Source of the DNA: the human T2T-CHM13v2.0 reference genome, Homo sapiens
DNA: 64,000 bases
NCBI RefSeq assembly: GCF_009914755.1
Contig: NC_060947.1
Strand: one strand, 5' to 3'
Part shown: positions 409 through 8,250 of the stretch, piece by piece
How positions within the stretch are numbered: the first letter of the stretch is position 1
Layout of the letters: the number at the start of each line of letters is the position of its first letter
Made by a program: the position numbers and the translations under genes
Notes under the pieces: generated by a model
Database searches by the model: none
What the model was told of the DNA's origin: nothing
Seen by the model: only the letters and a program-made list of their open reading frames with translations

Positions 409-572
409 TTTATTATTGCTAGTGATGTAGCCACCCTTCTTTAATGGCCTCAGAATATCTTTTCACTGATAGTTTGTTTTTAAATGTGCATCATGTAGAC
501 TTTTATAAACCTGGTTTCCTAAATTTGGCAGTAAGGATCAGTCAGGTTAAAATCCTAAGAAGGTTAAAAAAG
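409..572 (-). pseudogene. FSIP2-like exon 3, disabled
   Basis: 164 nt versus 162 expected (+2 frameshift), four in-frame stops, and GG instead of AG at the acceptor (574-573). Confidence 0.8.
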
Positions 573-1200
573 CCACAAACAAGTAGATTCAAAAGCATTA
601 CAAATGTAAAAATAAACGAAGCCACACTTTTAAACATCAATTTATTTAAATGATTAGGCTGTTCACTGAAAATAAAACTTGCAAGCAGAATGGGAAGTGA
701 GAGAATACAGACAATGGGCTGATTTGGGTAAACCTAACTGCTTTCTCTCTCTCTCCTCTCCCAGGCCTGTCTTTAGGCTGGAAGTGTCCTGTGGAATCCC
801 TATCTGTGAACCCTATATTCAGTCTTCCTGTAGCCTCAACCTCAGTCCAATTCCTGAACACAGAGGTTGGGATTGACTGTTGTGAAGGAGAGGAGGAGAG
901 TGCATGTCAAGTTTCAGTAGCTGGATGGACGAAGGCACGGAAGTAGGAATCAGCAGGGTATGTGTGGGTAGGCAGAAAAGACCCCAACCTGTCAGTGAAG
1001 ACTCTTGGGTTGGAGATAAGGTTGGATGGGGCGGCTGAGGCATATCATGGGGCTTTCTGTCATTAAAATGAGGTTTAAGAATTTAAACACTTCAACTCAT
1101 TTAACTTGGTATGTAAAACTGAAGTTAACACAAAGCAAAATCATAGCAAAATGTTTCCCATTTAACAGCAAACTGAAAAGGGTAAAGAAAATCACTTAAG

Positions 1201-2103
1201 GGAGGAGCCAAGATGGCCGAATAGGAACAGCTCCGGTCTACAGCTCCCAGCGTGAGCGACGCAGAAGACGGGTGATTTCTGCATTTCCATCTGAGGTACC
1301 GGGTTCATCTCACTAGGGAGTGCCAGACAGTGGGCGCAGGCCAGTGTGTGTGCGCACCATGCGCGAGCCGAAGCAGGGCGAGGCATTGCCTCAGCTGGGA
1401 AGCGCAAGGGGTCAGGGAGTTCACTTTCCAAGTCAAAGAAAGGGGTGACGGACGCACCTGGAAAATCGGGTCACTCCCACCCGAATATTGCGCTTTTCAG
1501 ACCGGCTTAAGAAACGGCGCACCACGAGACTATATCCCACACCTGGCTCAGAGGGTCCTACGCCCACGGAACCTCGCTGATTGCTAGCACAGCAGTCTGA
1601 GATCAAACTGCAAGGCGGCAAGGAGGCTGGGGGAGGGGCGCCCGCCATTGCCCAGGCTTGCTTAGGTAAACAAAGCAGCCGGGAAGCTCGAACTGGGTGG
1701 AGCCCACCACAGCTCAAGGAGGCCTGCCTGCCTCTGTAGGCTCCACCTCTGGGGGCAGGGCACAGACAAACAAAAAGACAGCAGTAACCTCTGCAGACTT
1801 AAGTGTCCCTGTCTGACAGCTTTGAAGAGAGCAGTGGTTCTCCCAGCACGCAGCTGGAGATCTGAGAACGGGCAGACTGCCTCCTCAAGTGGGTCCCTGA
1901 CCCCTGACCCCCGAGCAGCCTAACTGGGAGGCACCCCCCAGCAGGGGCACACTGACACCTCACACGGCAGGGTATTCCAACAGACCTGCAGCTGAGGGTC
2001 CTGTCTGTTAGAAGGAAAACTAACAACCAGAAAGGACATCTACACCGAAAACCCATCTGTACATCACCATCATCAAAGACCAAAAGTAGATAAAACCACA
2101 AAG
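1201..2103 (+). promoter_or_regulatory. L1 5'UTR internal sense promoter and antisense promoter; YY1 site CAAGATGGCC 1209-1218
   Basis: CpG-rich, intact L1 5'UTR. Function is from established L1 biology. Confidence 0.85.
1433..1648 (-). CDS. L1 antisense ORF0, intact, 71 aa
   Basis: MAGAPPPASLPPCSLISDCCASNQRGSVGVGP...RHPFL*, ATG at 1648-1646. Confidence 0.85.
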   Translation of the reverse strand: MAGAPPPASLPPCSLISDCCASNQRGSVGVGPSEPGVGYSLVVRRFLSRSEKRNIRVGVTRFSRCVRHPFL

Positions 2104-3120
2104 ATGGGGAAAAAACAGAACAGAAAAACTGGAAACTCTAAAACGCAGAGCGCCTCTCCTCCTCCAAAGGAACGCAGTTCCTCACCAGCAACAGAACAAA
2201 GCTGGATGGAGAATGATTTTGATGAGCTGAGAGAAGAAGGCTTCAGACGATCAAATTACTCTGAGCTACGGGAGGACATTCAAACCAAAGGCAAAGAAGT
2301 TGAAAACTTTGAAAAAAATTTAGAAGAATGTATAACTAGAATAACCAATACAGAGAAGTGCTTAAAGGAGCTGATGGAGCTGAAAACCAAGGCTCGAGAA
2401 CTACGTGAAGAATGCAGAAGCCTCAGGAGCCAATGCGATCAACTGGAAGAAAGGGTATCAGCAATGGAAGATGAAATGAATGAAATGAAGCGAGAAGGGA
2501 AGTTTAGAGAAAAAAGAATAAAAAGAAATGAGCAAAGCCTCCAAGAAATATGGGACTATGTGAAAAGACCAAATCTACGTCTGATTGGTGTACCTGAAAG
2601 TGATGTGGAGAATGGAACCAAGTTGGAAAACACTCTGCAGGATATTATCCAGGAGAACTTCCCCAATCTAGCAAGGCAGGCCAACGTTCAGATTCAGGAA
2701 ATACAGAGAACGCCACAAAGATACTCCTCGAGAAGAGCAACTCCAAGACACATAATTGTCAGATTCACCAAAGTTGAAATGAAGGAAAAAATGTTAAGGG
2801 CAGCCAGAGAGAAAGGTCGGGTTACCCTCAAAGGAAAGCCCATCAGACTAACAGCGGATCTCTCGGCAGAAACCCTACAAGCCAGAAGAGAGTGGGGGCC
2901 AATATTCAACATTCTTAAAGAAAAGAATTTTCAACCCAGAATTTCCTATCCAGCCAAACTAAGCTTCATAAGTGAAGGAGAAATAAAATACTTTATAGAC
3001 AAGCAAATGCTGAGAGATTTTGTCACCACCAGGCCTGCCCTAAAAGAGCTCCTGAAGGAAGCACTAAACATGGAAAGGAACAACCGGTACCAGCCGCTGC
3101 AAAATCATGCCAAAATGTAA
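2104..3120 (+). CDS. L1 ORF1p, intact, 338 aa
   Basis: MGKKQNRKTGNSKTQSASPPPK...LQNHAKM, with REKG, ARR and YPAKLS motifs retained. Confidence 0.97.
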   Translation: MGKKQNRKTGNSKTQSASPPPKERSSSPATEQSWMENDFDELREEGFRRSNYSELREDIQTKGKEVENFEKNLEECITRITNTEKCLKELMELKTKARELREECRSLRSQCDQLEERVSAMEDEMNEMKREGKFREKRIKRNEQSLQEIWDYVKRPNLRLIGVPESDVENGTKLENTLQDIIQENFPNLARQANVQIQEIQRTPQRYSSRRATPRHIIVRFTKVEMKEKMLRAAREKGRVTLKGKPIRLTADLSAETLQARREWGPIFNILKEKNFQPRISYPAKLSFISEGEIKYFIDKQMLRDFVTTRPALKELLKEALNMERNNRYQPLQNHAKM

Positions 3121-3183
3121 AGACCATCGAGACTAGGAAGAAACTGCATCAACTAATGAGCAAAATCACCAGCTAACATCATA

Positions 3184-7272: not shown

Positions 7273-7398
7273 CTTCTCACTTAGAACTGTAGTATAGAAT
7301 ACATTATCGCTTCCTGGGATAACAGGCAGCTTGACCCCAAGACACAGATCCAAAAGATGATATGCTCTGACCTCTGGAATGGGGTTTTCCTGCGAGCT
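7273..7398 (-). pseudogene. FSIP2-like exon 2 (126 nt, open, canonical AG/GT)
   Basis: LLDLCLGVKLPVIPGSDNVFYTT motif; phase 0-0. Confidence 0.85.
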
Positions 7399-7438
7399 CT
7401 GTCAGATGCAATTGGAAGTTTGTATTTTCTTCTGTATA

Positions 7439-7498
7439 TTGGTGCAAAAGTAATTGAAAGTAATGGCAAAACCGCAATTACTTTTGCACCAACCTAAT
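7439..7498. mobile_element. MADE1 (Hsmar1-derived MITE), internally deleted
   Basis: TTGGTGCAAAAGTAATTG (7439-7456) pairs perfectly with CAATTACTTTTGCACCAA (7475-7492). Confidence 0.9.
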
Positions 7499-7579
7499 AG
7501 AAATTATTCATTTAGTTTAGACCAAACGTATTATTACTTCCTATTAAATAGGCTAATACCTCCAAATAAACCAAAGAAC

Positions 7580-8250
7580 CATGCATTCGGGGTTGAAGGA
7601 ACCCGCCAGGCCGGCTGACAACTTGGATGTCCTCGTTTTTCTGGGTTACCAGTTCTACCTCTCGACCCCTGCCAGTGGTGGCCAGTGGCCGCCAAAGCCA
7701 CCGGCTGCCCAGAGCTAAGGGGCTGAAAGCTGAGCAGTCAAGAACCCGCCTCGTTCCCTCCCACTCGCGGAGATCTCCCTACTCGGTCTGTCCGCCTTCC
7801 GGAGACCCTCATTTGGGGCCACGAGTAGGAAGACGGACCGGCCTCCACTCACGGTGCGGCACTGCTTCTTGCCTGCATTCAGGCTGCTGGCGGCCGCCTT
7901 AGTGGCGGCGGCTTCGGCAGCCTTATAGCAGTTGCCGAGGTACAGCTCCAGAGCCAGCCTTCAGTCCCCAGGGGGCCAGACGCTGGGGTAGCAGGCGGTC
8001 CTCGTTTCTCCTCATTCACACCCTTCACGCTTTAGGTCCTGATCAGGTGTGGGCTGCCAAGATCGTGGTGGCCAGAGTAGAACGTCCTCTAGGCCACGCC
8101 CCTCACAATGCTGCCTTCTAGGCTGGAGAGCTGACGTCCTCAAGGGGCGTCACCCTCGGAGGTGGGGTGGGCAGCGGGTGAGTGGGGAGTGGTGACCGCT
8201 AAGCCTCACCAGACGCACAGGCACACGAGACTTCAGCCCCTTAGAGTCGA
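7580..8250. promoter_or_regulatory. CpG-rich island covering FSIP2-like exon 1 and its probable promoter
   Basis: Abrupt rise in GC and CpG in non-repeat DNA around exon 1. Confidence 0.7.
7853..7951 (-). pseudogene. FSIP2-like coding exon 1, start codon CTG instead of ATG
   Basis: 33 codons, open, GTGAGT donor. An in-frame TGA lies 4 codons upstream (7963-7961), so no upstream ATG can substitute. Confidence 0.85.

What the first reader, a model, noticed from the sequence alone, without database searches (positions are those of the whole stretch)
409..7951. FSIP2-paralog pseudogene with intact-looking exons 1-2 but a CTG start and a destroyed exon 3
Seen: exons of 33 and 42 codons with canonical splice sites and no stops, in or next to a CpG island. 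The start is GCT-CTG-G (G at -3 and +4). Exon 3 has four stops, a +2 shift and a GG acceptor. Knowledge (recalled): these lengths and motifs match the N-terminus of the sperm fibrous-sheath protein FSIP2, and mouse has an X-linked Fsip2l. Inference: lineage-specific gene loss. The asymmetry suggests the 5' part or promoter may still be transcribed, possibly giving a CUG-initiated peptide or a lncRNA.
Basis: partly seen in the sequence, partly recalled or inferred. Interest (0 to 1): 0.7.

Follow-up and report, generated by a model that had tools for sequence, protein, structure and literature searches.

The report
Front exons of dead gene FSIP2LP
These are the promoter and first three exons of FSIP2LP, an already named dead human copy of a sperm-tail gene family; the two unbroken-looking exons are decaying like the rest, so the finding is real but ordinary.

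Summary
On the minus strand there is a 33-codon exon (7951-7853) starting with CTG, a 42-codon exon (7398-7273), and a broken third exon (572-409). The third exon has four stops, a 2-base insertion and an AG-to-GG acceptor. A CpG island (7601-8250) covers exon 1.

All three exons match FSIP2 on chromosome 2 in the same order. They match X-linked FSIP2L proteins of horse and lemur better. They lie colinear with, and upstream of, the RefSeq pseudogene FSIP2LP. HGNC has already published FSIP2LP as a unitary pseudogene. RefSeq's 23-kb span is only the middle of a relic of about 100.7 kb, so these exons are its unannotated 5' end.

The proposed asymmetry does not hold:
- Human X is changed at 4 of 18 otherwise invariant residues in exons 1-2, against 4 of 28 in exon 3 and 3 of 13 in exon 4.
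- Exon 4 is also stop-free.
- At the stop density of the gene body, 75 stop-free codons have P about 0.15.

Coding function is not retained. Residual promoter activity cannot be tested here. CpG retention makes it plausible; the lack of any RefSeq transcript model argues against it.

The parts
7601..8250 (.). CpG island, the presumed relic promoter of FSIP2LP. It covers exon 1 and the start of intron 1.
   Evidence: 650 bp, GC 0.63, 39 CpG, o/e 0.61 against 0.20 window-wide. The FSIP2 promoter on chr2 has o/e 0.74-0.75. Two CRE half-sites lie at 8132 and 8148, with no full CRE.
7853..7951 (-). Exon 1 relic: 33 codons, CTG in place of the start ATG, no stop, 7 CpG kept.
   Evidence: 66% to horse FSIP2L over 35 aligned residues, 7951-7847, two past the exon end; ATG in FSIP2 against CTG here; donor GTGAGTGG the same.
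7399..7852 (-). Intron 1 (454 bp). It includes a MADE1-like palindrome at 7433-7499, about 35 nt upstream of the exon 2 acceptor.
   Evidence: Perfect 18-nt inverted repeat at 7439-7456 / 7475-7492. Rfam mir-548 scores 37.7 bits, below the gathering score of 90.
7273..7398 (-). Exon 2 relic: 42 codons, no stop, AG acceptor and GT donor kept.
   Evidence: (81% to horse FSIP2L, 79% to lemur). Three of 15 otherwise invariant residues are changed.
573..7272 (-). Intron 2 (6,700 bp). About 6 kb of it is a full-length L1 at 1197-7252 on the + strand, antisense to the pseudogene.
   Evidence: L1 ORF1 and ORF2 Pfam domains. Repeat spans come from the hub's table.
409..572 (-). Exon 3 relic: 164 nt, acceptor AG to GG, four in-frame stops, a 2-nt insertion, GT donor kept, no CpG left.
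   Evidence: (82% nt identity to chr2, E 8.1e-37).
1..408 (-). Start of intron 3. Exon 4 (30 codons, intact) follows at window -329..-418, outside the window.

Best explanation
Window 409-8250 holds the relic CpG-island promoter and exons 1-3 of FSIP2LP. FSIP2LP is the human unitary pseudogene of X-linked FSIP2L, a paralogue of the sperm fibrous-sheath gene FSIP2. The relic keeps the intron-exon layout of FSIP2. It runs on the minus strand from 7951 to about window -92,740, roughly 100.7 kb. RefSeq's FSIP2LP span (-46,344..-69,435) covers only the middle of it, so these 5' exons are simply unannotated.

The gene is long dead: it has lost its start codon, and it carries many stops, frameshifts and repeat insertions. 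Exons 1 and 2 have drifted without coding constraint like the rest, and their lack of stops is chance.

Shown: identity, colinearity, the lesions, and relaxed constraint. Inferred: the island has stayed largely unmethylated in the germ line, because exon 1 keeps 7 CpG while exons 3 and 4 keep none. Whether the island still fires is not shown.
For: Identity: exons 1-3 hit chr2 FSIP2 colinearly. They hit horse and lemur FSIP2L at 66-79%. Over exons 1-4, human X is 71-76% identical to the 9 non-rodent FSIP2L rows and 64-67% to the 8 FSIP2-type rows. In the tree it lies outside the FSIP2-type clade, which has support 100/99.

Part of FSIP2LP: the blastn and tblastn chain runs from 7958 through exon 4 (-329..-418), smaller exons, and two giant exons (-40,529..-51,573 and -53,578..-71,051) to a last-exon match at -92,478..-92,743. 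Pfam FSIP2 (PF15783) scores 89.8 bits (cut-off 27) on a stop-free piece of the body. HGNC names FSIP2LP as a unitary pseudogene with coding orthologues in horse, pig, cat, dog and mouse (PMC9825485, passage read).

Dead and drifting: the body has 138 stops in 5,528 aligned codons and 25 frame switches. It also has 11 insertions in the giant exons, 10 of which are repeated elsewhere in the 84 kb. Human X differs at 11 of 59 columns that are invariant in the other 21 rows. Those rows show 0-5 such changes, and 12 of 21 show none. The rate in exons 1-2 (4/18) is no lower than in exon 3 (4/28) or exon 4 (3/13). P(0 stops in 75 codons) is 0.15.
Against: Exon 3 is hit harder than average: four stops where 1.35 are expected, P 0.048, tested post hoc.

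The island still has CpG o/e 0.61 and exon 1 keeps 7 CpG (FSIP2 exon 1 has 9), while exons 3 and 4 have none. A region methylated in the germ line for tens of millions of years should have lost more, so some promoter-linked protection may persist.

The splice sites of exons 1, 2 and 4 are all intact.

No expression, methylation or primate comparative data could be consulted. The 20 comparison proteins were picked by hand from the 100 fetched, for having complete N-termini. In the tree, the place of human X among the FSIP2L rows is unresolved. Rodent FSIP2L rows (64-66%) are no closer to human X than FSIP2-type rows.
Confidence: 0.9

Rival explanations
1. The promoter is retained. The CpG island still fires in germ cells, or when demethylated as in tumours, and gives a non-coding transcript that uses exons 1-2 and perhaps exon 4. 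This fits with the gene being dead as a protein-coding gene.
For: CpG o/e is 0.61 against 0.20 for the window, and exon 1 keeps 7 CpG. The donor and acceptor sites of exons 1, 2 and 4 are intact. The mouse Fsip2l promoter is a methylated CpG promoter with CRE motifs that CREB1 switches on after demethylation (PMC9729108, passages read). Two CRE half-sites lie about 185-200 bp upstream of the CTG. A full-text search lists one TCGA differential-expression paper that holds the word FSIP2LP, but the passage could not be read.
Against: The hub's RefSeq table shows no transcript model at the island. It types FSIP2LP as 'pseudogene', whereas the neighbouring DENND10P1 is 'transcribed_pseudogene'. The island is weaker than that of FSIP2 (o/e 0.61 against 0.75). 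Half-site CRE motifs are common, and their chance rate was not tested. No paper mentions LOC105373336, and only three papers hold Fsip2l or FSIP2LP.
Confidence: 0.27
2. A CUG-initiated small protein of about 77-125 residues is made from exons 1-2, with or without exon 4, and is kept by selection.
For: The CTG has G at -3 and +4. There are 75 open codons with good splice sites. Exons 1-4 all begin and end between codons, so skipping exon 3 keeps the frame.
Against: Four of 18 otherwise invariant residues in exons 1-2 are changed, including the start M and a two-base Pro-to-Cys change. This is the same rate as in the broken exon. An out-of-frame ATG at 8015 opens a 30-codon reading frame that overlaps the CTG. 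With exon 3 included a stop comes after 2 codons, and exon 5 also holds two stops.
Confidence: 0.03
3. This is a separate partial duplicate or a processed copy of FSIP2, unrelated to the annotated FSIP2LP, or merely a chance resemblance.
For: RefSeq's FSIP2LP starts 54 kb away. Exon 1 alone is a weak match (E 0.027).
Against: Introns are present at the same places as in FSIP2, so it is not a processed copy. An unbroken colinear chain links the window exons to the annotated body and beyond. The exon 1 residues are of the FSIP2L type, not the FSIP2 type. Exon 3 DNA matches at E 8.1e-37.
Confidence: 0.01

Closest known systems
FSIP2LP (HGNC:55625), the human unitary pseudogene of FSIP2L
   Same: Same chromosome, strand and colinear gene body. 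The window exons are its exons 1-3. HGNC describes it as degraded in situ, with coding orthologues in horse, pig, cat, dog and mouse (PMC9825485).
   Different: The RefSeq span in the hub's table (-46,344..-69,435) leaves out these exons, the promoter island, part of the first giant exon and the 3' exons. The relic mapped here is about 100.7 kb, against 23 kb annotated.
FSIP2 (chr2), sperm fibrous-sheath gene; biallelic variants cause MMAF (PMC13623324, abstract in search listing)
   Same: Same exon sizes (33, 42, 54 and 30 codons), the same exon phases, and similar splice-site sequences. 67% residue identity over exons 1-4.
   Different: FSIP2 is intact, with ATG and open giant exons of 2,985 and 3,153 codons. 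The X copy is of the FSIP2L type in exon 1 and is broken throughout.
Mouse Fsip2l and other coding FSIP2L orthologues
   Same: The N-terminal exons align residue for residue: 64% to mouse, 76% to horse, 75% to lemur. The mouse promoter is a CpG promoter gated by methylation, with CRE motifs (PMC9729108). The human relic keeps a CpG island with two CRE half-sites.
   Different: The orthologues keep the start ATG and an open exon 3 (21 of 21 aligned rows). The human copy does not.

Membership tests
FSIP2L orthologue (5' end of FSIP2LP) | Significant similarity of the exons to FSIP2L proteins | tested here: met
   Exon 2 at E 3.9e-10 and 6.5e-10 against 5.8 billion proteins. tblastn of horse and lemur proteins finds exons 1-5 in order.
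FSIP2L orthologue (5' end of FSIP2LP) | Closer to FSIP2L than to the paralogue FSIP2 | tested here: met
   71-76% identity to 9 non-rodent FSIP2L rows against 64-67% to 8 FSIP2-type rows. Human X lies outside the FSIP2-type clade (100/99). Rodent FSIP2L rows are only 64-66%, and the placement within FSIP2L is unresolved.
FSIP2L orthologue (5' end of FSIP2LP) | Colinear and contiguous with the annotated FSIP2LP body, on the same strand | tested here: met
   Chain from 7958 to -92,743. The annotated span comes from the hub's table.
FSIP2L orthologue (5' end of FSIP2LP) | Pfam FSIP2 domain (PF15783) in the gene body | tested here: met
   89.8 bits (cut-off 27) at window -69,741..-69,977. A second piece scores 18.6 bits, below the cut-off, and 4 of 6 pieces gave nothing. 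Exons 1-2 themselves match no Pfam family.
FSIP2L orthologue (5' end of FSIP2LP) | Conserved synteny with coding orthologues (X-linked, beside ENOX2) | not testable with these tools
   ENOX2 is the next gene in the hub's table, and mouse Fsip2l is on chrX (PMC9729108). No other mammalian genome is held for a test.
Unitary (unprocessed) pseudogene | Introns kept and disabling lesions present | tested here: met
   Introns lie at the FSIP2 positions. The start codon is lost and exon 3 has 4 stops, a frameshift and a lost acceptor. The body has 138 stops and 25 frame switches.
Processed pseudogene | No introns | tested here: not met
   Introns of 454 bp and 6,700 bp separate the exons.
Functional small ORF or retained coding exon | Purifying selection on the residues | tested here: not met
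   4 of 18 otherwise invariant residues are changed in exons 1-2, no fewer than in exons 3-4 (7/41), Fisher p 0.72. No DNA of other primates was available for dN/dS.
Functional small ORF or lncRNA | Transcription and translation evidence | not testable with these tools
   No expression data are held. No paper was found for LOC105373336.
CpG island (length over 200 bp, GC over 0.5, o/e over 0.6; criteria recalled) | Composition thresholds | tested here: met
   650 bp, GC 0.63, o/e 0.61, which only just passes.

The most novel reading that the evidence does not exclude
The promoter has outlived its gene. The CpG island of FSIP2LP has stayed unmethylated in the germ line since the coding frame died. 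It still drives a testis-type or cancer-testis-type spliced non-coding RNA from exons 1-2, with or without exon 4. As with mouse Fsip2l, it is gated by DNA methylation and CREB-family factors.
Probability: 0.25. Interest if true: 0.3.

Novelty: already known. Interest (0 to 1): 0.14.

Why it matters
The value is mainly in annotation. The RefSeq model of FSIP2LP covers about a quarter of the relic and misses its promoter and first exons. Reads or variants that fall here would otherwise look intergenic.

It also removes a false lead. The tidy look of exons 1-2 is not a sign of a hidden human FSIP2L peptide. The only open biological point is small: whether a promoter island of a long-dead germ-line gene is still active.

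Tried and rejected
- Pfam on exons 1 and 2 gave no family. The family's model covers only the C-terminal part.
- Rfam at gathering score over 1-14,000 gave nothing.
- Searches for primate FSIP2L proteins to date the lesions found little. Besides the Lemur catta model found earlier, (13 hits among 548 candidates) held only a Rhinopithecus FSIP2. In one search (94 hits among 2,175 candidates, 325-2,000 residues) no named row is a primate. Full-length proteins over 4,010 residues were never within the length ranges searched, so this says nothing about which primates keep the gene.
- The supplements and the later text of the TCGA paper that holds 'FSIP2LP' could not be read.
- The promoters of the X copy and of FSIP2 do not align beyond exon 1.
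- The horse exon for residues 482-652 has no match on the X relic at E 0.01 or better in the 50 kb searched.
- The processed-copy, separate-duplicate and chance readings were rejected (see rivals).
- A cryptic AG made by the second stop of exon 3 was considered. Its use would still meet a stop 11 codons later (read from the sequence).
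Full report
**What is in the sequence**

- Exon 1 is 7951-7853. It has 33 codons and no stop. It starts with CTG in the context GCT CTG G, and its donor is GTGAGTGG.
- Exon 2 is 7398-7273. It has 42 codons and no stop, with acceptor ...CTGACAG and donor GTAAAC.
- Exon 3 is 572-409.

The region 7601-8250 is a CpG island: 650 bp, GC 0.63, 39 CpG, observed/expected 0.61, against 0.20 for the window. Exon 1 lies inside it.

**Similarity to FSIP2**

The own genome, a 3.1-Gb human assembly, was searched with each exon. 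Each search found only the exon itself and one place on contig C2.
- Exon 2: 73% of residues, E 5.2e-5.
- Exon 1: 56%, E 0.027, which is weak alone.
- Exon 3 DNA: 82%, E 8.1e-37.

The three C2 places lie in the same order and strand within 4.4 kb. Pairwise DNA alignments give these results:
- The CTG sits exactly where the C2 gene has ATG.
- The exon 1 donor is identical over 8 bases.
- The exon 2 splice sites are kept.
- In exon 3 the acceptor AG reads GG. Three C2 codons containing CpG and one TAT/TTG-type codon are now stops, at exon codons 3, 6, 18 and 36. Two extra bases follow codon 20, and the donor GT is kept.

The C2 exons are 33, 42, 54 and 30 codons long, all beginning and ending between codons.

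**Which paralogue it is**

Against 5.8 billion proteins, exon 2 found 2 proteins among 6 candidates, both named FSIP2-like. They were Lemur catta (185 aa, 79%, E 3.9e-10) and Equus przewalskii isoform X7 (802 aa, 81%, E 6.5e-10).

tblastn of these two proteins against 84 kb of the X chromosome found several exons in order:
- exon 1 (66% to horse);
- exon 2 (79%);
- exon 3 in two frames, with stops;
- an intact exon 4 at window -329..-418 (77%, no stop);
- exon 5 at -778..-921, with two stops;
- further broken exons.

I aligned exons 1-4 of the X copy, with X at each break, to the C2 gene and to 20 proteins chosen by hand from the 100 fetched for having complete N-termini. Thirteen were of the FSIP2L type and seven of the FSIP2 type. 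Identities of the X copy:
- 71-76% to the nine non-rodent FSIP2L rows;
- 64-66% to the four rodent FSIP2L rows;
- 64-67% to the eight FSIP2-type rows.

In a maximum-likelihood tree the FSIP2-type rows form a clade with support 100/99, and the X copy lies outside it. Its place among the FSIP2L rows is unresolved. Its end branch is 0.24, against a median of 0.076.

**It is the 5' end of a known pseudogene**

HGNC has published FSIP2LP (HGNC:55625) as an example of a unitary pseudogene. It was named after coding FSIP2L genes in horse, pig, cat and dog and after mouse Fsip2l (PMC9825485, passage read). The hub's table puts RefSeq's FSIP2LP at window -69,435..-46,344 on the minus strand.

Three comparisons against the 134 kb of X sequence (70 kb and a further 50 kb upstream of the window, plus its first 14 kb) give one colinear minus-strand chain. 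They were blastn of 100 kb of the C2 gene, tblastn of its two giant open exons (2,985 and 3,153 codons) and tblastn of the horse protein. The chain runs as follows:
- exons 1-3 in the window;
- exon 4 at -329..-418;
- small exons down to about -34,000;
- the first giant exon at -40,529..-51,573;
- the second giant exon at -53,578..-71,051;
- a last-exon match at -92,478..-92,743.

The relic therefore spans about 100.7 kb. The C2 gene spans about 94.5 kb. RefSeq's 23 kb is its middle part.

A stop-free piece of the body matches Pfam FSIP2 (PF15783) at 89.8 bits, with a cut-off of 27. One further piece scores below the cut-off, and four of the six pieces tested gave nothing. Exons 1-2 match no Pfam family.

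**How dead it is**

In the colinear tblastn chain of the two giant exons there are 138 stops in 5,528 aligned codons (0.025 per codon). There are also 25 frame switches between 33 successive pieces. Eleven insertions of 181-6,166 bp interrupt these exons, and ten of them have other copies within the 84 kb, so they are interspersed repeats.

Across exons 1-4 the X copy differs at 11 of 59 columns that are invariant in the other 21 rows. Those rows show 0-5 such private changes, and 12 of 21 show none.

As a rough inference only, about 0.19 changes per constrained codon points to tens of millions of years of drift. The Lemur catta model keeps the start M and an open exon 3. The lesions are therefore not shared with that strepsirrhine.

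**The proposed asymmetry**

Three results speak against reading function into this.
- Private changes at otherwise invariant residues are as frequent in exons 1-2 (4 of 18: the start M, a Lys, a Gly, and a Pro changed to Cys by two bases) as in exon 3 (4 of 28) and exon 4 (3 of 13). Fisher p is 0.69 and 0.72.
- Exon 4 is equally clean, with both splice sites kept. Cleanness is therefore not a property of the 5' end alone.
- At the body's stop density, 75 codons are expected to hold 1.87 stops, giving P(0) = 0.15. The body itself contains 20 stop-free aligned runs of 75 codons or more.

Exon 3 is somewhat over-hit, with 1.35 stops expected and P(4 or more) = 0.048, tested post hoc. Part of the reason is visible: the three CpGs of the C2 exon are all gone in the X copy, and two of the stops sit at such codons.

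**What might still be alive**

The island is the one feature that neutral decay does not fully explain. Exon 1 keeps 7 CpG, while the C2 exon has 9. Exon 2 keeps 2 of a comparable 5. Exons 3 and 4 keep none.

This suggests, by inference, that the island has been shielded from germ-line methylation. That would fit a promoter that is still bound.

In mouse, the Fsip2l promoter is a methylated CpG promoter with CRE motifs. CREB1 activates it once methylation is removed (PMC9729108, passages read). The human island has two CRE half-sites at 8132 and 8148 but no full site, and I did not test how often such half-sites arise by chance.

Several points argue against activity:
- The hub's table shows no RefSeq transcript at the island.
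- It types FSIP2LP as a plain pseudogene, unlike the neighbouring transcribed DENND10P1.
- The island is weaker than that of FSIP2 (0.61 against 0.75).

A CUG-started peptide is unlikely. The residues are unconstrained, and an out-of-frame ATG at 8015 opens a 30-codon frame across the CTG. With exon 3 included, a stop follows after two codons.

**Literature**

Full-text searches found three papers with 'Fsip2l', two with 'FSIP2LP', none with 'LOC105373336', and only the HGNC paper for 'FSIP2' plus 'unitary pseudogene'. FSIP2's role in the sperm fibrous sheath and in MMAF is taken from abstracts shown in a search listing. The TCGA paper that holds 'FSIP2LP' could not be read at that place.

**Verdict**

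The new content is an annotation point: the 5' exons and promoter of FSIP2LP, and its true extent. The retained-function idea fails for coding and remains untested for transcription.

Noticed in passing
window 1197-7252 (+): A full-length L1 lies in intron 2, antisense to the pseudogene. ORF1 is open, with all three L1 ORF1 Pfam domains. ORF2 (endonuclease and reverse transcriptase) is interrupted by one in-frame stop at 5041-5043. It is 97% identical to L1 pieces inside FSIP2 on chr2. Its 5' end faces exon 3, so any antisense L1 promoter activity would read towards exon 3 (an idea, not tested).
   Followed up: partly
window 7433-7499: A MADE1-like palindrome with perfect 18-nt arms lies about 35 nt upstream of the exon 2 acceptor. 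Rfam mir-548 scores 37.7 bits on the minus strand and 34.3 on the plus strand, both below the gathering score of 90.
   Followed up: partly
window -290..-460 (L013, just before the window): Exon 4 of the relic (30 codons) is intact. The first 22 or so intron bases after its donor are identical in the X copy and in FSIP2 on chr2, although the paralogues are old. This may be a conserved intronic splicing element.
   Followed up: no
window 7715-7960 (-): The frame of exon 1 stays open 45 codons into intron 1, giving an 81-codon frame from stop to stop. A sloth FSIP2L model (P0034) reads into the same region and shares a 15-residue patch, 13 of 15 identical (54% identity over 78 residues, E 2e-11). 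Mink and buffalo models also extend exon 1 by a few residues. This looks like a conserved proximal intron or alternative-donor region.
   Followed up: partly
window 7923-8015 (-): An upstream ATG at 8015, in weak context and out of frame with the CTG, opens a 30-codon frame that overlaps the CTG at 7951. A second ATG at 8284 opens a 44-codon frame that ends at 8150. The transcription start site is unknown.
   Followed up: partly
window -40,529..-92,743 (L007-L009, L024-L028): RefSeq's FSIP2LP span covers only part of the relic. The first giant exon starts about 5.8 kb before the annotated start, and 3' exon remnants reach about 23 kb past the annotated end. Eleven insertions, one of 6.2 kb, split the giant exons.
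   Followed up: yes
P0001 (Lemur catta, 185 aa): The only primate FSIP2L-type protein found is a short model with exons 1-4 open and a start M, followed by an unrelated tail. The short model may itself reflect a decaying or poorly assembled gene in lemurs.
   Followed up: no
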